IMG/VR virus record: IMGVR_UViG_2698536428_000002
Reading direction: 5' to 3' (one strand)
DNA: 13,798 nt
DNA from: a virus
Lineage: Duplodnaviria; Heunggongvirae; Uroviricota; Caudoviricetes
Shown here: positions 1 to 13,798 of the stretch, in pieces
Layout: each line of letters begins with the position of its first letter
Numbering within the stretch: position 1 is the stretch's first letter
Position numbers and translations under genes: made by a program
Notes under the pieces: model-generated
Told to the model about the DNA's origin: nothing
Seen by the model: only the letters and a program-made list of their open reading frames with translations
The model's database searches: none

Positions 1-2292
1 CTTCGTGAAGACAAACTCCCCGCGGTGGACAATCCCCGCTGGCTCATATTTGCCACCGGTTCCCGTAAATCCCCCGGTCGCGAAATGGAAGTTCGCCGCC
101 GCAGCCTGAATGGCCGTCCCCGTGGAAGCGGATGCGCCACCACCGAAAGCACCACCAATGGCGCTGCCGATACGCCCGACAATCCCCACCATCGCCTGCT
201 TCAGAAAAATCTCTGTCAGCATGGAGAGCACGGAACGGGTGAAACCACGCCAGTTCTGTTCGCTGCCGGTCAGCATCGCTGCCATATTCTGTGCAATACC
301 GTCAAAGGTCTGCGTGGCCGCGCTTTTAACCTGCGAAAAACTGTCCGTCGCACTTTCCGCCCACTCGCCCCAGCCGGACTTCAGACCCGCCATCCAGCTT
401 CCACGAAGCTGCTCCTCCGCAGACCAGGTGTTCTTCAGTGCAGATGTGACCTTCGCCAGCGCATCCGGATTATCACCGTACACGTCACGAAGGCGCTGCT
501 CTTCCGACTCCCGCTGCGCCTGACGGTCGGTGAGGCCGCGGGCTTTTGCGCTGATGGCGGCCTGCTTCGCGCTCTGCTGCTGTTCAAACCGCGCCGCCTG
601 CTGTGCCAGCTCATTCAGCCGTTTCTGGTGTTCAACCTTGTCGCCCAGGTCAGCCAGCTGGCGTTTGTACTCCAACGTCTCTTTCTCATGGGCCAGCAGG
701 GATTTTTCCTGCTCAGATAACTGCCGTTTCGTGGCGGCCTCTTTCAGGACCACATACTGATTTTCCGCTTTCCATAAATCCCGGCGCTGCTGGCTGATTT
801 TTTCATTCGCACCGGCATGCTTTTCCAGCGTCCTGAGCTCGGTTTCAAGCGCCAGCATGGCTGCATGCGCCCGGTCTTCCTGGCGCTCACCGGCAGACAC
901 CTTCACACCGGACGGCTTTTTCTGCGTCGACTCATAATCCTTTTTTGCCGACGCCATCAGCGTGTTGTAATCCGCCTGCAGGATTTTCCCGTCTTTCAGG
1001 GCCTTATTCAGCTCTTCCTGCCGGGCGGTATATTTCTCCAGTGGCGTCAGCAGGCGCTCATACGCCTTCTGCGCCTCTCCGGTATACTTCAGCTGTGACG
1101 ACTCACGCTCAGCCCTGTCCCTTGCCGCCAGTTCACCGGCTTTTTCCATATCCGACTGCAGCGTTGCCGCTGCCAGACCCAGACGGGCATTTTCCCGGTC
1201 ATCCCATGCGCCCTGAAGGTTGGCCCGGAAAGAGGAGGTTTTACCGCGGCGCTGGCTCCGGCTCTGGTACCACTGCCATTTTTTATCCGCCTCATCAAAT
1301 GCCTTCTGCGCACTGGCGAGCATATCCGCTGAGGATTCCGGACGACCGATATCCAGAATGGCATCCCACATCGATTTGAACGCCTTCCCTGTTTTATCTG
1401 CCCAGGTTTCCAGCGTCCCCATGTTCTCTTTCAGGCGGCGGGTCTGCTCATCAAAGCCTTTCGTGGCAGCATCGTTCGCCGCCTGTAAGGCACCGGCCTC
1501 GTCTCCGGAACGCTGCAGCTGTGCAACATACGCAATCTGCTCTGCCGTCACGTTACGGAACTGGCGCGCCATCGCCATCAGTCCCGACGTCGGGTCGGTG
1601 GTCAGTTTTCCGAAAGCCTCTGCAACCTTGTCCACTTCAACACCGGATGCAGACGCAAAACGCGCGACACTCTGGTTAATGGCATCAAACTGTTCACCAC
1701 CACGCACACCGGCATTCACCAGGGCTGCCAGTGACTCTCTCGCCTGGTTAAACGTCAGCCCTGCTGCCTGCCCGGCTCTTGAGAGCGTCAGCATACGATC
1801 GGCAGTCAGTCCGGCCTGATTGCCGGAAAGGACCAGCGTTTTATTAAATTCTGAAAGCGTGGAATCCCCCTGGTACCAGGCGTACGCCAGCGCACCTGTC
1901 GCCACCGCCAGCGAGGTGACCCCGACCATCGGCAGGGTGATCGCACCGGCAAGCCCCCTGAACATGGGGATCATCCCGCCGAAGGAGTCCTTCACCTGAC
2001 CGCCCTGTTGCAGCAGGATCAGCCAGGGATTCTGACCACCGGCAAGCTGCGTGGCGATATCCGTAAACTGTGCGGGCAGGGTTCGCATGGCCGCTTTATA
2101 CTGCCCGACGGAAATCCCTGCTTTTTGTGCGGCCAGCGCCTGACGGTTCAGACTCTGCTCAACGGCACCGGCGGTTTTTCTGGCATCATTCTCCAGTCCT
2201 GAAAAATGACGCCTTACCCGGCTCATCTGCTCATCGAAACGGACAGCATCCAGACTCAGGTCAATAACAAAATCACCAACCGGCTGGGACAT
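1..2292 (-). CDS. H: Tail tape measure protein (lambda gpH-like), 3' end truncated by window start
   Basis: Minus-strand frame is open from the ATG at 2292..2290 to base 1 (764 codons, no stop). It is missing from the ORF track only because it has no in-window stop. Translation starts MSQPVGDFVIDLSLDAVRFDEQMSRVRRHFS and ends at the window edge with RGEFVFTK, both matching lambda gpH as I recall it. SD GGAGG lies 6 nt upstream of the ATG. Start overlaps the T stop at 2273..2275. Confidence 0.9.
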   Translation of the reverse strand, partial: MSQPVGDFVIDLSLDAVRFDEQMSRVRRHFSGLENDARKTAGAVEQSLNRQALAAQKAGISVGQYKAAMRTLPAQFTDIATQLAGGQNPWLILLQQGGQVKDSFGGMIPMFRGLAGAITLPMVGVTSLAVATGALAYAWYQGDSTLSEFNKTLVLSGNQAGLTADRMLTLSRAGQAAGLTFNQARESLAALVNAGVRGGEQFDAINQSVARFASASGVEVDKVAEAFGKLTTDPTSGLMAMARQFRNVTAEQIAYVAQLQRSGDEAGALQAANDAATKGFDEQTRRLKENMGTLETWADKTGKAFKSMWDAILDIGRPESSADMLASAQKAFDEADKKWQWYQSRSQRRGKTSSFRANLQGAWDDRENARLGLAAATLQSDMEKAGELAARDRAERESSQLKYTGEAQKAYERLLTPLEKYTARQEELNKALKDGKILQADYNTLMASAKKDYESTQKKPSGVKVSAGERQEDRAHAAMLALETELRTLEKHAGANEKISQQRRDLWKAENQYVVLKEAATKRQLSEQEKSLLAHEKETLEYKRQLADLGDKVEHQKRLNELAQQAARFEQQQSAKQAAISAKARGLTDRQAQRESEEQRLRDVYGDNPDALAKVTSALKNTWSAEEQLRGSWMAGLKSGWGEWAESATDSFSQVKSAATQTFDGIAQNMAAMLTGSEQNWRGFTRSVLSMLTEIFLKQAMVGIVGRIGSAIGGAFGGGASASTGTAIQAAAANFHFATGGFTGTGGKYEPAGIVHRGEFVFTK

Positions 2293-3144
2293 ATCTCACA
2301 CCTCCGGAAATCCCCGCTGAAGCCATCATTAATGCAACATCATCCTCGCTGACATCCACCACATCTGCAGAAGGTGAAATATCGCCCCCTCCCTCCCCAC
2401 CGAACCGGACGCCTCCGGCAAGTCCTGCCGCTTTCTGCATCAGCATGTCTTCCTCATCCGGCATCTCCGTCTGCGCTTCCTCTCGCCGGGGAGCCAGCAG
2501 ACTGAAATCCGAGGGATGCATATCCGGATCGCAAAAAAACAGGCTGAGTACGGCGTACATCAGCCCGGAAAAATGCATATCCAGTTGGGTATCCTGAAAA
2601 TAATGCGTGCGGTAAAAATGTCGCCAGTCGGCATATTCGGTGGATGTCATCCCGGCAAGCATGGCGCGCCAGTCGGGTCTCCCCATCTCACGCGCCAGTC
2701 TGAGGGCAAAGTTCAGCTCGCCGTCGAAGACTTTCCCGCAGAAAAATCATCATCAGTCAGCGTGTTATTTTTCGCCACTTCAGTAATATCAGTATCCGGA
2801 CGAACAGCTTCGATCATCCCGGACAGGCACAACACCACGTCTTCCGCCCGGGCAATGGCATCGGCAGGCCAGGTGGTGAGCACTTCCTGCTCTATCTTCA
2901 TCACGGCCTCATTCATTGACGTTGACTGCGTTCTCTGTGGATGGTTATGCCACAGGGACATCGCCACCAGAAACGCGCCGGTTCTGACAAGATCTTCCAC
3001 ACTCACCTGCAGGTTGCCGCTGGCTTCAGCCTCTTCTGCCCGCCGTTTCAGCAGGGCAAGATGCTCGATACGCTGCAGCGCAGACAGCTCCGAAAGCGTG
3101 ACAGACACACCGTTATATTCAAATTGTTCTGTTTTCAGAAACAT
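2273..3144 (-). CDS. T: Tail assembly chaperone G-T fusion, made by programmed -1 ribosomal frameshift near 2731..2737
   Basis: The -1 frame after the GGGAAAG heptamer reads GKVFDGELNFALRLAREMGRPDWRAMLAGMTSTEYADW and continues to a stop at 2273..2275. This matches the lambda gpT portion of gpG-T. The track ORF 2273..2686 is the ATG-initiated part of this frame. Confidence 0.85.
2713..3144 (-). CDS. G: Tail assembly chaperone (lambda gpG-like)
   Basis: 143 aa ORF starting MFLKTEQFEYNGVSVTLSELSALQRIEHLALLKRRAEEAEA, closely matching lambda gpG. Sits between V and T/H as in lambda. Slippery heptamer lies 6 codons before its stop. Confidence 0.92.
   Translation of the reverse strand: MFLKTEQFEYNGVSVTLSELSALQRIEHLALLKRRAEEAEASGNLQVSVEDLVRTGAFLVAMSLWHNHPQRTQSTSMNEAVMKIEQEVLTTWPADAIARAEDVVLCLSGMIEAVRPDTDITEVAKNNTLTDDDFSAGKSSTAS
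2731..2737 (-). promoter_or_regulatory. Programmed -1 frameshift slippery heptamer G_GGA_AAG
   Basis: Minus-strand sequence GCG GGA AAG TCT (plus ctttccc at 2731..2737). Same heptamer and same position relative to the G stop as the lambda G/G-T site. Confidence 0.85.
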
Positions 3145-3157
3145 GTATTACCTCCGT

Positions 3158-3910
3158 TTACCCTGCAGCGCCCGCTTCAGTAACGGTGACTTCAGCTACC
3201 GTGGCAAACTGACCATTACCGGAAATCACGGGGATACTCACTTTTCCGGCCTTAATCCCCGTCACAGTGATCACCATATCTTTCACAGCAATGGTTCCCG
3301 TTGACGGATCGGCGGAAACCGCTCTGAACGTCTTGTCGGTTGCACTTTCCGGCTCAAAAGAAACCGTCAGGGTGGTTGTTTTTCCTTTTTCCACGGTACC
3401 GGATGTCGGTGTCACCTTAATTGCAGTGACCGGCGTAATTTTGCTGCGTTCTTCCGCCACGGAAGGTTTGCCCACGTTGGTCACTTTCACCGTGCGGGTG
3501 ATCACTTCTTTCGCCGTCACGGCCTTACCGATACTGCTGACCCAGCCACGAAACACATCCACCGTGCCGTTCGGAAAACGGATTTTATAGGCCCGCACAT
3601 CCCCGCTTTCAAACCAGCCTATAAGCCCTTTCTGACCATCTTCTCCCGGTTTCCAGGCCAGCGTAAAACTGGTATCTCCTGCAGACTTCTGCCCCTGCCC
3701 GGTCGCGGTCCAGTCCGCGTCTTCATCATCCAGGTAGTTATCATCGTAGGGTTCTGCCGTCATCTCGCCCGGCGTCAGATCCTTCACCTTAGCCAGTCGC
3801 TGCCAGTCATCGTCTGACAACGGGTTTGCATAAGCATCACCCTTGCCGTTGTAAACCCACAGAGTGGTACCGGCACCTTTTACCGGCTCCAGGGGATTTG
3901 GTGTTGCCAT
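3158..3910 (-). CDS. V: Major tail tube protein (lambda gpV-like) with C-terminal Ig-like domain
   Basis: 250 aa; [53 protein letters not shown]... is near-identical to lambda gpV over long stretches. The C-terminal ~90 aa resemble the lambda gpV Ig-like extension. Confidence 0.95.
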
Positions 3911-3917
3911 ATCGTCC

Positions 3918-4313
3918 TCACATCTCGTATGTAATGGAATAAGTCAGATCCGCAGAGCTCCATAACGCCATATCGTCATCACGACGATACTCATAGCCCT
4001 GCGTAACCATCGTGGTAATCAGTCCTGCCAGTGCAGGGATCGCAGTCATCGCCGGATAAATCCGGCTTTCCATCCACTGATCGAGCTCCGAATCAGGTAC
4101 CTGTGCCGGTAAAAACACCTCAATATGCAGTGTGGCCCGCCAGGTATCTGCATCCAGCTCTTCACCGGTATACTCTGCATCCGTCAGATAAACCGCGATC
4201 GCAGGAAAATCCTCTTCGTCAAAAACAACGGGGCGACCATCAAACAGCGTCGCCCCGTGTTCATGCTGCTCGAGTGCATCCAGCACTGCGGCACGAATGT
4301 CAGTGTGTTTCAT
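3918..4313 (-). CDS. U: Tail terminator protein (lambda gpU-like)
   Basis: 131 aa; [54 protein letters not shown]... matches lambda gpU throughout. Overlaps the Z stop. Confidence 0.95.
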
Positions 4314-4843
4314 CGTTTTATCGCAATCCTCAGTTGTTGTTTCAGCGCGTATGCCAGTTCTTTAGGCAGGCGTTCACGCCGGATACGGTCAACATTCTCA
4401 TCAAATGCCTGTTTCAGTGGGGCCGCCATCGGGATTTTCACCACATCAATGGGGTAACGGTTTTTCCCGGCCACACGCTGCATGACATGCCAGCGACCAT
4501 TTTTTAATCGCTGAATAAATGCCCGCTGATACCGATGCTGACCGGCTTTAAGTATGCTGTTCGGGCGACGCCCCAGCATCCTGATCCCCAGCTTAATCAC
4601 AGGGAGATCACCGCGGTTAACGATAATTCTGGCATTCGGATTTCTGACCGTCGCCCGTTTCAGTCTGGACCGTTCCTTAACCAGTTTCCGGCGAACCTTT
4701 GTCTCCCGGGCAACCTGTGATGAAGACTGATTAATCGCCGTTGTGGCCACGCGGTTAATGGCCATTGCTGAAGCCGCCGGAATGGCGTTTTTACGAACCC
4801 GGCTCAGATTGTCAATCGCCTGATCAAGCCCTTTTATCGCCAT
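4310..4843 (-). CDS. Z: Tail completion protein (lambda gpZ-like)
   Basis: 177 aa; MAIKGLDQAIDNLSRVRKNAIPAASAMAINRVATTAINQSSSQVARETKVRRKLVKER... with C-terminal NGRWHVMQRVAGKNRYPIDVVKIPMA matches lambda gpZ. Confidence 0.95.
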   Translation of the reverse strand: MAIKGLDQAIDNLSRVRKNAIPAASAMAINRVATTAINQSSSQVARETKVRRKLVKERSRLKRATVRNPNARIIVNRGDLPVIKLGIRMLGRRPNSILKAGQHRYQRAFIQRLKNGRWHVMQRVAGKNRYPIDVVKIPMAAPLKQAFDENVDRIRRERLPKELAYALKQQLRIAIKR

Positions 4844-4858
4844 AATTTCACCCTGCGT

Positions 4859-5212
4859 TTATCGTCGCCGGTTAACTGCGGGTGGTTGACCACGGTTGAG
4901 CCAGAGATAACAGCTGCCCCCGTCATCCGGAGAAACACGATCCACCCAGAATATCTCACCATTAATGGTCAGCGTGTCACCACGCCGCACGGCACGAACC
5001 GTATCCGTCCGCACAAATAATGACGGGCTGCTTCCTTCAATACGGACCCCGCCACCGGCAAACCCCAGCGACTCCGGATCGTCAAAAACCCCCTGAACTT
5101 CGCTGCCACACTGTGCCCCCGAGGTGAACTGCGCACGGATCCCCATCACTTCAACGATCGTACTGTCCACCCCGGCGAGGGCAGCATCAAAGGCATTCTG
5201 AAAATCACGCAT
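4859..5212 (-). CDS. FII: Head-tail joining protein (lambda gpFII-like)
   Basis: 117 aa; ...VRIEGSSPSLFVRTDTVRAVRRGDTLTI...FWVDRVSPDDGGSCYLWLNRGQPPAVNRRR matches the lambda gpFII C-terminus almost residue for residue. Confidence 0.93.
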   Translation of the reverse strand: MRDFQNAFDAALAGVDSTIVEVMGIRAQFTSGAQCGSEVQGVFDDPESLGFAGGGVRIEGSSPSLFVRTDTVRAVRRGDTLTINGEIFWVDRVSPDDGGSCYLWLNRGQPPAVNRRR

Positions 5213-5588
5213 ATTCAGCCGTTCCGTGCTGTATCATGGCCGTTGCCAGTGATGATGGCACCAGAACACGCATACCCCGTAACGCCAGCTCAACGGGACG
5301 ACCTGTCTCCGGGCAATACCCCATTACTTGCAGGCACTTCCGTACCCGGACGGCTTTAACATCATCCGGAGCATCCGTGTTGTTCAACTGCTCACCATCG
5401 TCTGTGTGATTTTGATCAGCCCCGCTCTCATCAGAGTGCATAATGCCCTCCGGGGAAACAGCAAGCTCCTCTTCCCACTCAGACACACGTTGAGCAATAT
5501 CCGCAGCACTCCCCGACATATCCGCCTCGCGCCCCAGCAGGCCAGCCAGTTGACGAAGACGATTCAGATTTTCTTCTTTTGTTGCCAT
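5205..5588 (-). CDS. FI: DNA packaging protein (lambda gpFI-like)
   Basis: Located between E and FII. Sequence MATKEENLNRLRQLAG... shows moderate similarity to lambda gpFI (MTKDELIARLRSLGEQ...). Start placed at the ATG at 5588 because AGGAGG sits 5 nt upstream; the track ORF start at 5636 would run across the E-FI terminator hairpin. Confidence 0.75.
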   Translation of the reverse strand: MATKEENLNRLRQLAGLLGREADMSGSAADIAQRVSEWEEELAVSPEGIMHSDESGADQNHTDDGEQLNNTDAPDDVKAVRVRKCLQVMGYCPETGRPVELALRGMRVLVPSSLATAMIQHGTAEYA

Positions 5589-5602
5589 CTCAGCCTCCTG
5601 TG

Positions 5603-5631
5603 AAAAAAGACACGGGGGCATTTCGCCCCCG
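5603..5631 (-). terminator. Intrinsic terminator-like hairpin between E and FI
   Basis: Minus strand reads CGGGGGC-GAAAT-GCCCCCG: a 7 bp GC stem with 5 nt loop, then TGTC and TTTTTT. It lies immediately after the E stop codon and abuts the FI SD. Confidence 0.45.
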
Positions 5632-5639
5632 CTCACGGA

Positions 5640-6668
5640 TTATTTCACCTGTACCACCACAAACTCATCCGGATCCGGCAGCACCATCAGCGGAGCGGAC
5701 TGCGTCATGGTGAATTCACGGGCCGGATCGCCCACAGTCAGCCAGTGTTTCGGATAACGGGAAGAGGCCACCACACCTTCGGACAACGCCTGCGCATCCT
5801 GAATGGCACCATAGCAACGAATGCCCTCTGCTGCCGTATTCCCCAGGACCAGTGTGCCCTCCGGCAGATAACGTTTTTCGGTACCGTCCTCTGCCACATA
5901 AGACGTTTTCGCCACCACAATGGCCAGATCGCCGTAATACCCCTTGAAGGACACCACCGCCCCCAGGTCTTTCACTGCCGTTTCGAGTTGTGAATTTGAG
6001 CCGCGACGGGTATCCAGTTTTTCGCGGAACAGCTTAAAGCCATTCAGCAGACGCCAGACCGTACCGTCCATAATGGCGATATTCACAAGGCCGCTGGCCT
6101 GATCGCAGTAGAGGTCAATATCATGCGTCGGATCAAACGTATCACGGTCCTGCTCAGACCATTTTTTACCGTCAGCCTGCTCAATGTTATTTCCTTCAGA
6201 GCGCCCGAAATCCACCTCGACAGTATCAAACTGATCCCCTTCCATGGTGTATTTGCCATACAGCACGGCATTCACCGCCTGCATTTCTTCCACCTGGACA
6301 ATGGCGTGCTCTTCCTGTTTGAGGTTATCGGTAATGATACGCAGACGACGGTAGGCCGGGTCATTCAGCTGAGCCGGATCTTCACCAGGAAGGCGCTCAA
6401 CCGCCTGCTGGTAATTAAATTCGTGTTTCGGCTTGACGTAGCCCGGACGTAACACGCGGGTTTCACCACCACGATGACGCAGCACTTTTCCTTCAACAAC
6501 CGGGGAGACATAGGCTGCCACCGGCGTTTTTCCGGTAATTTTGTCCAGCATCACCTCTTCGGTGTGGAAATTCACCGTACGGCGGAAAAACAGCTCCAGA
6601 AACAGCGCACGGAATTTCACTTTTTGTTCGGTATAACCGAGTAACTGGCGGGTCGTAAACAATCCCAT
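5640..6668 (-). CDS. E: Major capsid protein (lambda gpE-like)
   Basis: 342 aa; motifs PGYVKPKHE, QVEEMQAVNAVLYGKYTM, KLDTRRGSNSQLETAVKDLG and PAREFTMTQSAPLMVLPDPDEFV all match lambda gpE. Confidence 0.97.
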   Translation of the reverse strand: MGLFTTRQLLGYTEQKVKFRALFLELFFRRTVNFHTEEVMLDKITGKTPVAAYVSPVVEGKVLRHRGGETRVLRPGYVKPKHEFNYQQAVERLPGEDPAQLNDPAYRRLRIITDNLKQEEHAIVQVEEMQAVNAVLYGKYTMEGDQFDTVEVDFGRSEGNNIEQADGKKWSEQDRDTFDPTHDIDLYCDQASGLVNIAIMDGTVWRLLNGFKLFREKLDTRRGSNSQLETAVKDLGAVVSFKGYYGDLAIVVAKTSYVAEDGTEKRYLPEGTLVLGNTAAEGIRCYGAIQDAQALSEGVVASSRYPKHWLTVGDPAREFTMTQSAPLMVLPDPDEFVVVQVK

Positions 6669-7109: not shown

Positions 7110-7712
7110 TCATGGCATGGCCATGAGCATTTTCACGTCCGCATCACCGTCTGCCGACGTCTGTGACACGCCACCCTGCACGGCTGCCGGTGAATGGTTC
7201 GCCATGATGCGTTCAAACATGGCGGTTGTGGATGCAGAAACCGGTTCTGCTTTATCCGGCGATGAGGACAGAATGTCGCGGGCAGCCTCCACCGTCATTC
7301 CGGGAAACGCCGCCAGTTTTTCAGCCTGCGCCTCAGCCCCTTTTGCCTCATCCAGAGCCATAATCTGATCACGGAGTGAGGGTCCGGCATCCGCCTGCGG
7401 TGAAGCCGCCAGGATCGGGCGGGCTTTTTCCACCGTCATATCCGGCATCGCCGCCAGCGTTGCCGCCAGTTGTTCACGACCTTTAGCTTCTTCACACGCC
7501 ATAATGCGATCGGCTTCACTCTGCGTGGATGCCACCGGCTGCTGTGGTGCTGCCGCGGTCAGAATCGCCCGGGCCTGTTCAACGCTCATGCCCTGTTGTC
7601 CTGCCAGCATCGTGGCAAGGTGTTCACGTCCTTTCGCTTCCTGACACGCCAGGATCCCCATCACTCGCTGGTTCTCCTGCGCGGCAGCTTCCGTTGCAGT
7701 TAATTGCGGCAT
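7110..7712 (-). CDS. Nu3: Scaffolding protein Nu3-like, nested in-frame within the 3' end of C
   Basis: Internal in-frame ATG at 7712..7710 (Met302 of C) preceded by AGGAGG at 4 nt spacing. In lambda, Nu3 is likewise an in-frame internal start within C. Product would begin MPQLTATEAAAQENQRVMGILACQEAKGRE... Confidence 0.7.
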   Translation of the reverse strand: MPQLTATEAAAQENQRVMGILACQEAKGREHLATMLAGQQGMSVEQARAILTAAAPQQPVASTQSEADRIMACEEAKGREQLAATLAAMPDMTVEKARPILAASPQADAGPSLRDQIMALDEAKGAEAQAEKLAAFPGMTVEAARDILSSSPDKAEPVSASTTAMFERIMANHSPAAVQGGVSQTSADGDADVKMLMAMP

Positions 7713-8615
7713 AGTGCCTCCTGTATCATGTGTGTTCAGCGCCGCAGCCATCACGCTGATGGCATCCGACGCATTGATTAATTCATCCGCCAGCCCGGCC
7801 TCAATGCCGGACTGACCTTCAAAAACGGCGGCCTCTGTTCCCGTGACTGCATCAACAGACAGACCGGTATACATCGCCACTTTTTCGGCAAACATCCGGC
7901 GCGCCGCATCAATCCGCTGCTGCATGTCCTGGCGAACCTCTTCCGGCAACGCTTCAAACTGATTGCCATCCACCTTGTGCGCCCCTGAGTAAATCAGCGT
8001 GATATCCACACCGGCCTGCGCCAGATGACCGGCATAGCTGACATGGCTCATCATCACGCCAATGGAGCCGATACGGGATGTCTGGGTAACCAGCCGTCGG
8101 GAGCAGGCCGACGCCAGCAGCATGGCTGCAGAACAGGCCGTGTCATTGCACAGTGCCCAGACCGGCTTCTGCTGACGGAGGCGGTAAATCATGTCAGCAC
8201 AGTCAAACGCACCGGCGGCCTGCCCGCCCGGACTGTCAATGTCCAGCAGTACACCCCGCACCTGGCTATCCGCCATTGCCTGCTGAAGACAGGCGACAAT
8301 GCCGTCATAGCCTGTCATTCCGGAAAATGGCCGCATACCCCCCAGCCGGTGCACCAGCGTGCCTGTGACCGGCAGTACAGCAATACCGTTCACCACCCGG
8401 TAAACACGGGCCGGTCGTTTACCTCCGGCCATGTACTCGTCCGTTTCAGCCAGCATTCCGGGTGCATCAAGCTGTACCTGCTGTTGTGGTACCGAAAGAC
8501 TTGCTGCCCCCATCTCGCGCCCGAGCGCGCAAAAGAAAACCCGCGCATAGGCGGGCTCCAGAAGCAGCGGTTCATTGAATGCTGCTGCAATAATGTGTGA
8601 AAGATTACGTCTCAC
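7110..8615 (-). CDS. C: Capsid assembly protease / minor capsid protein (lambda gpC-like, ClpP/SppA family)
   Basis: 501 aa; N-terminus NEPLLLEPAYARVFFCAL, then NGIAVLPVTGTL, GAFDCADMI, KPVWALCND, SRRLVTQTSRIGSIGVMMSH and GVDITLIYSGAHKVDGN match lambda gpC. The C-terminal third is the scaffold (Nu3) region. Confidence 0.95.
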   Translation of the reverse strand: MRRNLSHIIAAAFNEPLLLEPAYARVFFCALGREMGAASLSVPQQQVQLDAPGMLAETDEYMAGGKRPARVYRVVNGIAVLPVTGTLVHRLGGMRPFSGMTGYDGIVACLQQAMADSQVRGVLLDIDSPGGQAAGAFDCADMIYRLRQQKPVWALCNDTACSAAMLLASACSRRLVTQTSRIGSIGVMMSHVSYAGHLAQAGVDITLIYSGAHKVDGNQFEALPEEVRQDMQQRIDAARRMFAEKVAMYTGLSVDAVTGTEAAVFEGQSGIEAGLADELINASDAISVMAAALNTHDTGGTMPQLTATEAAAQENQRVMGILACQEAKGREHLATMLAGQQGMSVEQARAILTAAAPQQPVASTQSEADRIMACEEAKGREQLAATLAAMPDMTVEKARPILAASPQADAGPSLRDQIMALDEAKGAEAQAEKLAAFPGMTVEAARDILSSSPDKAEPVSASTTAMFERIMANHSPAAVQGGVSQTSADGDADVKMLMAMP

Positions 8616-13006: not shown

Positions 13007-13018
13007 AGGTCGCCGCCC
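13007..13018 (-). other. cosN cohesive-end site (12-nt overhang GGGCGGCGACCT)
   Basis: Minus strand reads ...CGGGTCCTTTCCGGCGATCCGGGCCGTTACG|GGGCGGCGACCT|CGCGCGTTTTCACTATTTATGA. This is near-identical to the lambda right end (...CGGGTCCTTTCCGGTGATCCGACAGGTTACG) joined to the lambda left end (GGGCGGCGACCTCGCGGGTTTTCGCTATTTATGA). Confidence 0.85.
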
Positions 13019-13385: not shown

Positions 13386-13798
13386 TTATCTGAGGCATTG
13401 CTCACGAATGTATAGCTGTGCCCCTTCCAGCTGCTTCTGCATTGTCATCAACCGTTCTCTGAGGATGAAATAATCCCGTTCAGCGGCGTCTGCCAGTCTG
13501 GGGCCGGTTGCATTATCCACGCCGGAGGTGGTGGGGGCTTCACGCACGGAGCCTGGACAGGTGGCGTTGATCCGCAGGCGCTTACGACCAGCGGCAACGT
13601 CAGCGCGAAGAGTTTCATTTTCAGCTCTCGCATCGGCTAATTCCCTCGAGTATTTTGCATCGAGCGCAGCAACATCGCGCTGGCGCACCTGCATATCAGT
13701 AATGGTTGCGTTCGCCAGCTTCAGTTCACTGGCTTTGTTATCGCGCTGCGCTTTGTAGGTAATCGCGTTATCACGGTAATGGTCTGTTGCCATCCACA
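13386..13798 (-). CDS. Rz: Inner-membrane spanin (lambda Rz-like), 5' end truncated by window end
   Basis: Frame is open to the window edge. ...[75 protein letters not shown]...[35 protein letters not shown] matches lambda Rz. The N-terminal transmembrane segment lies outside the window. Confidence 0.92.
13448..13633 (-). CDS. Rz1: Outer-membrane spanin lipoprotein (lambda Rz1-like), embedded in +1 frame within Rz
   Basis: 61 aa; [61 protein letters not shown]. Has a lipobox (VSAC) and proline-rich core, and is near-identical to lambda Rz1 (…[32 protein letters not shown]). Confidence 0.9.

What the first reader, a model, noticed from the sequence alone, without database searches (positions are those of the whole stretch)
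2725..2745. Conserved G/G-T programmed -1 frameshift site with contiguous T frame
GCG GGA AAG TCT holds the lambda-type slippery heptamer G_GGA_AAG six codons before the G stop. The -1 frame continues for about 150 codons with strong gpT similarity and ends 17 nt inside the H start. A simple gene caller would report G and a separate, oddly starting T ORF (track ORF 2273..2686) and miss the fusion.
Basis: partly seen in the sequence, partly recalled or inferred. Interest (0 to 1): 0.35.

Follow-up and report, generated by a model that had tools for sequence, protein, structure and literature searches.

The report
Lambda-type G/GT tail-chaperone frameshift site

Summary
Confirmed and already known. 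On the minus strand, gene G (3144..2713, 143 aa) carries GGGAAAG at 2737..2731 in the register G_GGA_AAG, with five sense codons before its TGA. The -1 frame is open only from 2746. It runs 152 codons from the slip to a stop at 2275..2273, 20 nt into the tape-measure gene H (ATG 2292). The fused 290-aa product passes the curated cut-offs of both the lambda G and lambda T families. It also matches, end to end, a 290-position PHROG profile of the fusion. Phage lambda has the same heptamer, register and distance to the stop, and GT is 68% identical. All 183 related loci examined carry an A_AAG-ending heptamer at the same position. The heptamer alone is no rarer than chance; the evidence lies in its frame and place. 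That ATG has no Shine-Dalgarno sequence and is a Phe codon in five of the six lineages that are not close relatives of this window or lambda. The one loose end is a predicted GC-rich RNA structure starting 8 nt downstream, with suggestive but inconclusive statistics. Interest is low.

The parts
2713..3144 (-). Gene G, tail assembly chaperone (143 aa, zero frame), with stop TGA at 2715..2713
   Evidence: ORF list and translation. Pfam PF06894 at 2e-49. NCBIfam TIGR01674 equivalog, 165 bits against a cut-off of 74.
3151..3155 (-). Shine-Dalgarno GGAGG serving the shared G/GT start codon
   Evidence: Sequence upstream of ATG 3144 is AAACGGAGGTAATAC|ATG.
2731..2737 (-). Slippery heptamer G_GGA_AAG (P-site GGA to GGG, A-site AAG to AAA)
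   Evidence: Register checked. Identical to the lambda site at NC_001416 10109..10115. An A_AAG heptamer sits at the same position in 183 of 183 related loci.
2716..2746 (-). The only stretch where the G frame and the -1 (T) frame are both open, so any productive shift must occur here
   Evidence: -1 frame stop at 2749..2747 and G stop at 2715..2713.
2273..2731 (-). T segment read in the -1 frame from the re-read G at 2731 (152 codons plus stop). The GT coding sequence is join(3144..2731, 2731..2273) and gives 290 aa
   Evidence: Translation. Pfam PF06223. TIGR01715 covers residues 143-252 of the fusion. The T part is 70% identical to the lambda T part.
2273..2686 (-). The 'T' ORF as called by gene finders. 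Its ATG (Met154 of GT) is probably not a real start
   Evidence: No Shine-Dalgarno sequence upstream (GGCGCGTGAG|ATG). The codon is TTC (Phe) in N15, LLS, mEp213, mEp460 and Gifsy-2. Conserved T-frame residues, and the start of the TIGR01715 match, lie upstream of it.
2654..2722 (-). Predicted bipartite GC-rich RNA hairpin beginning 8 nt 3' of the heptamer. Its function is unproven
   Evidence: MFE -38.2 kcal/mol, z = -3.5 against dinucleotide shuffles, with similar results in lambda and N15. Consensus structure of 18 pairs. z = -1.2 to -3.2 against synonymous recoding. Rank 9 of 213 coding windows. 87.8% of cells paired, with weak covariation.
1..2292 (-). Tape-measure gene H (5' part, runs off the window). 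ATG 2292..2290 is preceded by GGAGG
   Evidence: Pfam TMP_2 at 7e-70 and Tape_meas_lam_C at 8e-21. Start context.
3158..3910 (-). Major tail tube gene V, immediately upstream of G
   Evidence: Pfam Phage_TTP_12 at 2e-69 plus Big_2.

Best explanation
This is the ortholog of the phage lambda G/GT programmed -1 ribosomal frameshift, sitting in the tail module of a lambda-like E. coli prophage.

All ribosomes start at ATG 3144. Most read G to its stop and make the 143-aa chaperone. A few per cent are expected to slip back one base when the tRNAs for Gly (GGA) and Lys (AAG) occupy G_GGA_AAG and re-pair with GGG and AAA. Those ribosomes continue in the T frame and make the 290-aa GT fusion. The 'few per cent' is taken from lambda, where the figure is about 4%, or a ratio of about 30:1.

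By analogy with lambda, many copies of G and a few of GT coat the tape-measure protein H. The T domain recruits the tail-tube protein V. Neither protein ends up in the virion.

Shown here: the anatomy, the homology and the conservation of the site. Inferred from lambda: that the slip happens, its rate and the assembly role.
For: - Heptamer register and the narrow two-frame overlap.
- Gene order V-G-T-H, within a complete lambda-like block running Rz, cos, Nu1, A, W, B, C, D, E, FI, FII, Z, U, V, G, T, H.
- Both halves pass curated family cut-offs, and a full-length fusion PHROG matches residues 1-290.
- Lambda has the same heptamer, frame and five codons to the stop, and GT is 68% identical.
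- tblastn of the fusion against phage genomes gives two-piece (two-frame) matches in 39 of the 40 records listed.
- The site is kept in relatives down to 35% identity as GGGAAAG, AAAAAAG or GGAAAAG, with A_AAG invariant in 183 of 183 loci.
- N15, LLS and Gifsy-2 records explicitly annotate the frameshift.
- T-frame residues between the heptamer and ATG 2686 are conserved: VFDGELNFALRLARE here against VFDGELSFALKLARE in lambda.
- Literature on the lambda mechanism, the 30:1 ratio and the dependence on tRNA-Lys modification: PMC5009743, PMC3296357, PMC7618472.
Against: Nothing contradicts it. No expression data exist for this element, so the efficiency is unknown. The heptamer alone is as frequent as chance. 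A run of five T (T_TTT_T, 2746..2742) just upstream could allow a minor alternative P-site slip, which would give ...DDFFCGKVFDG instead of ...DDFSAGKVFDG.
Confidence: 0.94

Rival explanations
1. T is an independent gene translated from its own ATG at 2686, as the RefSeq and GenBank annotations imply, and no frameshift is involved.
For: The ORF 2273..2686 exists and is what PGAP and the PV340551 record annotate.
Against: There is no Shine-Dalgarno sequence before ATG 2686, whereas the G and H starts have GGAGG. The codon is Phe in N15, LLS, mEp213, mEp460 and Gifsy-2. The 15 T-frame codons upstream of it are conserved, and the TIGR01715 match starts upstream of it. Lambda T is known to be made only as the GT fusion (PMC5009743).
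Confidence: 0.03
2. The G/T frame break is a decay mutation or a sequencing error in a defective prophage.
For: Some related contigs do carry indels here: L004 has a 1-nt deletion in the T-run and L003 has a truncated T.
Against: The same two-frame arrangement, with a slippery heptamer at the same position, is present in 183 of 183 loci, in lambda itself and in functional phages. The region matches 3648 of 5426 complete E. coli genomes. Both frames are intact here.
Confidence: 0.01
3. The GT fusion arises from transcriptional slippage by RNA polymerase at the A-run, not from ribosomal slippage.
For: Slippage at homopolymer runs is known in other systems (PMC5009743).
Against: The run is only three A here and at most six in the Stx1 phages, well short of the longer A/T runs I recall being needed for polymerase slippage (my own knowledge). 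The X_XXY_YYZ register is conserved, and only the ribosomal mechanism requires that. In lambda, frameshifting responds to tRNA-Lys thiolation (PMC3296357).
Confidence: 0.01
4. The same ribosomal frameshift occurs, but its rate is set partly by the predicted RNA hairpin at 2654..2722, which starts 8 nt downstream. That would make it a 3' stimulator or modulator, contrary to the published view that phage G/T shifts lack stimulatory signals.
For: - The structure is stable: -38 kcal/mol, z = -3.5, with lambda at -3.7 and N15 at -4.6.
- It is more stable than synonymous recodings in all 12 sequences, z = -1.2 to -3.2.
- The spacer is in the usual 5-9 nt range cited in PMC5009743.
- Four pairs show compensatory changes, for example GC/AU/CG at columns 16:84.
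- Synonymous change is reduced within the lambda/N15/LLS clade.
Against: - The RNAalifold covariation term is about zero.
- The number of covarying pairs is not above shuffles, 220 of 500.
- The region ranks only 9th of 213 coding windows.
- The inner helix is partly broken in the mEp460/Gifsy-2 clade, and no synonymous constraint is seen against mEp460.
- The region encodes the most conserved part of T, which confounds the tests.
- A rate of about 4% is low (my inference: it may need no stimulator).
Confidence: 0.2

Closest known systems
Phage lambda G / GT programmed -1 frameshift (Levin, Hendrix and Casjens 1993; Xu, Hendrix and Duda 2004, 2013, 2014)
   Same: Identical heptamer G_GGA_AAG, identical register, and five sense codons to the G stop. 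Same V-G-T-H gene order, with T overlapping the H start. G is 66% identical, the T part 70% and GT 68%. Both pass the same NCBIfam equivalogs.
   Different: G is 143 aa here against 140 in lambda, with a divergent acidic tail before the site. The two-frame overlap is shorter, 10 codons against 20. T is 4 aa longer at the C-terminus and overlaps H by 20 nt rather than 8. No experimental data exist for this element.
G/T-type frameshift sites of other lambdoid phages (N15 genes 14/15, LLS 11/12, Gifsy-2, mEp460, Stx1/VT1-Sakai)
   Same: Homologous proteins at 35-68% identity, with the shift site at the same aligned position and A_AAG invariant.
   Different: They use G_GAA_AAG (GGAAAAG) or A_AAA_AAG instead of G_GGA_AAG. 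In mEp460 and Gifsy-2 the G stop follows after 2 codons rather than 5.
E. coli dnaX and IS911/IS3-type -1 frameshift signals
   Same: A heptamer ending in A_AAG, decoded by the single tRNA-Lys (UUU). A possible 3' hairpin at a comparable spacing.
   Different: No Shine-Dalgarno-like stimulator within 25 nt upstream. The expected efficiency is a few per cent rather than about 50% (the dnaX figure is from my own knowledge). The 3' structure is unproven.

Membership tests
Lambda-type tail assembly chaperone pair G/GT with conserved -1 frameshift | Two ORFs located between the major tail (tube) gene and the tape-measure gene | tested here: met
   V is at 3158..3910, G at 2713..3144, T at 2273..2731 and H at 1..2292, all on the minus strand.
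Lambda-type tail assembly chaperone pair G/GT with conserved -1 frameshift | The downstream ORF is in the -1 frame relative to the upstream ORF and overlaps its 3' end | tested here: met
   The -1 frame is open from 2746 and the G stop is at 2715..2713, giving a 10-codon overlap.
Lambda-type tail assembly chaperone pair G/GT with conserved -1 frameshift | A slippery heptamer X_XXY_YYZ in the zero-frame register inside the overlap | tested here: met
   G_GGA_AAG at 2737..2731. It is one of only 2 in-frame A_AAG heptamers in 4193 codons.
Lambda-type tail assembly chaperone pair G/GT with conserved -1 frameshift | Sequence membership of both halves in the lambda G and lambda T families | tested here: met
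   PF06894 at 2e-49 and PF06223 at 5e-13. TIGR01674 at 165 bits against 74, and TIGR01715 at 201 bits against 77. phrog_32165 matches the full length.
Lambda-type tail assembly chaperone pair G/GT with conserved -1 frameshift | The site is orthologous to the experimentally mapped lambda site and is conserved among relatives | tested here: met
   Same heptamer, register and distance to the stop as lambda. 183 of 183 loci carry an A_AAG heptamer at the fixed position.
Lambda-type tail assembly chaperone pair G/GT with conserved -1 frameshift | T has no translation start of its own | tested here: met
   No Shine-Dalgarno sequence before ATG 2686. That codon is Phe in five lineages. Conservation extends upstream of it. 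This is sequence inference only.
Lambda-type tail assembly chaperone pair G/GT with conserved -1 frameshift | The fusion protein is actually produced at a few per cent of G | not testable with these tools
   This needs an immunoblot, mass spectrometry, a reporter assay or ribosome profiling. Known for lambda only (PMC5009743, PMC3296357).
Lambda-type tail assembly chaperone pair G/GT with conserved -1 frameshift | G and GT are both required for tail assembly and are absent from mature virions | not testable with these tools
   A genetic and biochemical property, established for lambda (PMC5009743).
Stimulated bacterial -1 frameshift signals (dnaX / IS3 type) | A functional 3' hairpin or pseudoknot 5-9 nt downstream of the heptamer | tested here: inconclusive
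   A stable structure is predicted with an 8-nt spacer. The excess over synonymous recoding is moderate. Covariation is weak. Synonymous constraint is partial.
Stimulated bacterial -1 frameshift signals (dnaX / IS3 type) | A Shine-Dalgarno-like stimulator roughly 10-14 nt upstream of the heptamer | tested here: not met
   The upstream sequence ACGCTGACTGATGATGATTTTTCTGC contains no GGAG, GAGG or AGGA.

The most novel reading that the evidence does not exclude
The GC-rich bipartite hairpin predicted 8 nt downstream of the heptamer (2654..2722, minus strand) is shared with lambda, N15 and LLS. It may be a conserved RNA element that tunes the G:GT ratio. If so, the textbook 'stimulator-free' lambda G/T frameshift would have an overlooked 3' modulator.
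Probability: 0.18. Interest if true: 0.4.

Novelty: already known. Interest (0 to 1): 0.08.

Why it matters
The biology is textbook. The G/GT frameshift sets the roughly 30:1 chaperone ratio that lambda-type tails need to assemble around the tape measure.

The practical value is for annotation. Related sequence is found in 3648 of 5426 complete E. coli genomes. The two near-identical records inspected, a PGAP-annotated RefSeq chromosome and a GenBank phage, list T as a separate N-terminally truncated 137-aa protein instead of the 290-aa GT fusion.

The only open scientific point is whether the downstream RNA structure modulates the shift.

Tried and rejected
- Rfam scan of the whole window at gathering thresholds: no match.
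- Sequence search of the fusion against solved structures (PDB): no hit.
- Bare-heptamer statistics: uninformative, 2 copies against 2.33 expected, so I used in-frame counts instead.
- Genome-contig scan for diverse relatives: it returned mostly lambda-identical, often low-coverage contigs in unrelated taxa, probably lambda DNA contamination, and added little diversity. Diversity came from tblastn against phage records and a second viral-contig scan.
- Xu et al. 2013 (PMC3762263) is not held. Levin et al. 1993 is absent from the library search results. I therefore could not check what they tested downstream of the site and relied on the Atkins 2016 review.
- Sharma et al. 2014 has no searchable text on G_GGA_AAG.
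- Rejected readings: independent T initiation, pseudogene or sequencing error, and transcriptional slippage (see rivals).

Full report
**Observation**

The feature lies on the minus strand. G runs from ATG 3144 to TGA 2715..2713 and encodes 143 aa. GGGAAAG occupies 2737..2731. The zero-frame codons are GCG GGA AAG, so the register is G_GGA_AAG. Five sense codons (TCT TCG ACG GCG AGC) separate AAG from the stop.

The -1 frame has a stop at 2749..2747. The two frames are therefore both open only over 2746..2716, about 10 codons, and the heptamer sits in that stretch.

From the re-read G at 2731 the -1 frame runs 152 codons to TGA 2275..2273. That is 20 nt into H, whose ATG is at 2292..2290. The fusion is 290 aa with the junction ...DDDFSAGK|VFDGELNF....

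The bare heptamer is not significant, with 2 copies against 2.33 expected. In-frame X_XXY_YYZ heptamers are rare, 8 in 4193 codons, and only 2 end in A_AAG. About 0.005-0.02 would be expected by chance in a 10-codon overlap.

**What it is**

The window is a complete lambda-type late block, collinear with lambda. It runs Rz/Rz1, an exact lambda cos sequence (13007..13018), Nu1, A, W, B, C (S49 protease), D, E, FI, FII, Z, U, V, G, T and H.

- The fusion hits Pfam Phage_TAC_2 (residues 1-119, 2e-49) and Phage_tail_T (167-245, 5e-13).
- It hits the NCBIfam equivalogs phage_lambda_G (165 bits, cut-off 74) and phage_lam_T (201 bits, cut-off 77).
- phrog_32165 is a 290-position profile that it matches from residue 1 to 290 (2e-170). 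Some phage annotations therefore already contain this fused protein.
- The TIGR01715 match begins at residue 143, which is 11 residues upstream of the Met encoded by ATG 2686.

**Comparison with lambda and relatives**

Lambda (NC_001416) reads TCT GCG GGA AAG TGT TCG ACG GTG AGC TGA. It has the same heptamer, the same register and five codons to the stop. GT is 68% identical, G 66% and the T part 70%.

tblastn of the fusion against 50,697 phage records found 185 records. In 39 of the 40 records listed the match came in two pieces, that is two frames.

Across lineages down to 35% identity the site stays at the same aligned position:
- GGGAAAG in lambda, the Stx2a phages and E. albertii.
- AAAAAAG in Stx1 and VT1-Sakai.
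- GGAAAAG in N15, LLS, mEp213, mEp460 and Gifsy-2.

In 183 loci that carry the T motif, all have an A_AAG heptamer exactly 39 nt upstream of the Leu codon of LARE: 100 GGGAAAG, 81 GGAAAAG and 2 AAAAAAG. The N15, LLS and Gifsy-2 records annotate the frameshift explicitly.

**Annotation**

The closest phage record (PV340551, 99.8% identical) and the closest E. coli chromosome (strain SCU-106, 99.9% identical, annotated by PGAP) both list G plus a separate 414-nt T, with no join.

That ATG is unlikely to be a real start:
- It has no Shine-Dalgarno sequence (GGCGCGTGAG|ATG), whereas the G and H starts have GGAGG.
- It is a Phe codon in five other lineages.
- The 15 T-frame codons upstream of it are conserved.

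**Mechanism**

The anatomy, homology and conservation are shown here. The slip itself, its rate and the assembly role are inferred by orthology.

In lambda, ribosomes slip -1 on G_GGA_AAG at a low level, giving G:GT of about 30:1. G and the G part of GT bind the tape-measure protein H. The T domain recruits the tail-tube protein V. Neither protein is in the virion (PMC5009743). In lambda about 96% of ribosomes stay in frame, and loss of tRNA-Lys (mnm5s2U34) thiolation raises the shift and lowers phage yield (PMC3296357; PMC7618472).

There is no Shine-Dalgarno-like element upstream of the heptamer here.

**Downstream RNA structure**

The 80 nt after the heptamer fold into a bipartite GC-rich hairpin. 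Its outer stem starts 8 nt after the heptamer, and the structure spans 2722..2654. The free energy is -38.2 kcal/mol, with z = -3.5 against dinucleotide shuffles. Lambda gives z = -3.7 and N15 gives -4.6.

Evidence in favour:
- Against synonymous recodings that keep the T protein, all 12 sequences are more stable than expected, z = -1.2 to -3.2.
- On 20 distinct sequences, 87.8% of cells pair and four pairs show compensatory changes.
- Synonymous change is reduced in this segment within the lambda/N15/LLS clade.

Evidence against:
- The window's segment ranks only 9th of 213 coding windows in this block.
- The count of covarying pairs is not above shuffles, and the RNAalifold covariation term is about zero.
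- No reduction in synonymous change is seen against mEp460.

I rate a functional role at about 0.2.

**Rivals**

Independent T initiation, a pseudogene or sequencing error, and transcriptional slippage are each rejected on the evidence given in the rivals section.

A minor caveat is a run of five T (2746..2742, T_TTT_T) just upstream, inside the overlap. It could allow a low-level P-site-only slip with a different junction. It is absent from lambda.

**Verdict**

This is an ortholog of a textbook recoding site that is found in most E. coli genomes (3648 of 5426), so it is already known. Its value is an annotation correction. Interest is 0.08.

Noticed in passing
window 2654..2722 (-): A predicted stable bipartite hairpin starts 8 nt downstream of the slippery heptamer and is shared with lambda, N15 and LLS. 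It shows a moderate stability excess over synonymous recoding and weak covariation.
   Followed up: partly
window 7734..7817 (-), with ATG 7712..7710 and GGAGG 7718..7722: This is the strongest structure outlier among 213 coding windows (MFE -44.8, z = -5.9 against synonymous recoding). Two hairpins inside the C (S49 protease) ORF lie immediately upstream of an in-frame internal start with a GGAGG Shine-Dalgarno sequence. That start would give a Nu3-like 200-aa scaffold.
   Followed up: partly
window ~7253..7676 (-): The C-terminal (scaffold) part of the C ORF contains three tandem repeats of about 40 aa (…RIMACEEAKGREQLAATLAA.P.MTVE.AR.IL…), seen by eye in the translation.
   Followed up: no
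window 940..946 (-): An in-frame A_AAA_AAG, the most shift-prone type of E. coli heptamer, lies inside the tape-measure gene H. The -1 frame stops after 2 codons, so a slip would only truncate H at about residue 452.
   Followed up: partly
window 2742..2746 (-): A run of five T (T_TTT_T in the zero-frame register) sits inside the G/T overlap, just upstream of the heptamer. It is a possible minor P-site slip site. It is conserved in this sublineage but absent from lambda and L024.
   Followed up: no
window 13007..13018 (-) and 13386..13793 (-) with nested 13448..13633 (-): An exact copy of the lambda 12-nt cohesive-end sequence GGGCGGCGACCT lies upstream of Nu1. The Rz gene (Pfam Phage_lysis, 7.5e-49) carries an embedded out-of-frame Rz1-like ORF with a lipobox (…LVVSAC) and a proline-rich tail.
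   Followed up: partly
loci L086-L103, L105-L107 (genome contigs): Contigs with the same identity to the query as lambda itself, several of them very low-coverage (about 1x where the record title gives coverage), appear in assemblies of unrelated organisms such as Neobacillus, Kitasatospora, Pseudomonas, Leeuwenhoekiella and Bradyrhizobium. They most likely reflect lambda DNA contamination of sequencing libraries.
   Followed up: no
L004 ~1895-1907; L003 T frame: L004 has a 1-nt deletion in the T-run just before the heptamer, which puts G into the third frame, and its T frame is also disrupted. L003 has a truncated T frame. These are decayed prophage copies or assembly errors.
   Followed up: partly
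L001 3959..6531 (PV340551): In the closest phage record the tape-measure gene H is annotated as two overlapping CDS (3959..6394 and 6346..6531), whereas the near-identical E. coli SCU-106 prophage has one 2574-nt H. This is a possible frameshift or sequencing error near the 3' end of H.
   Followed up: no
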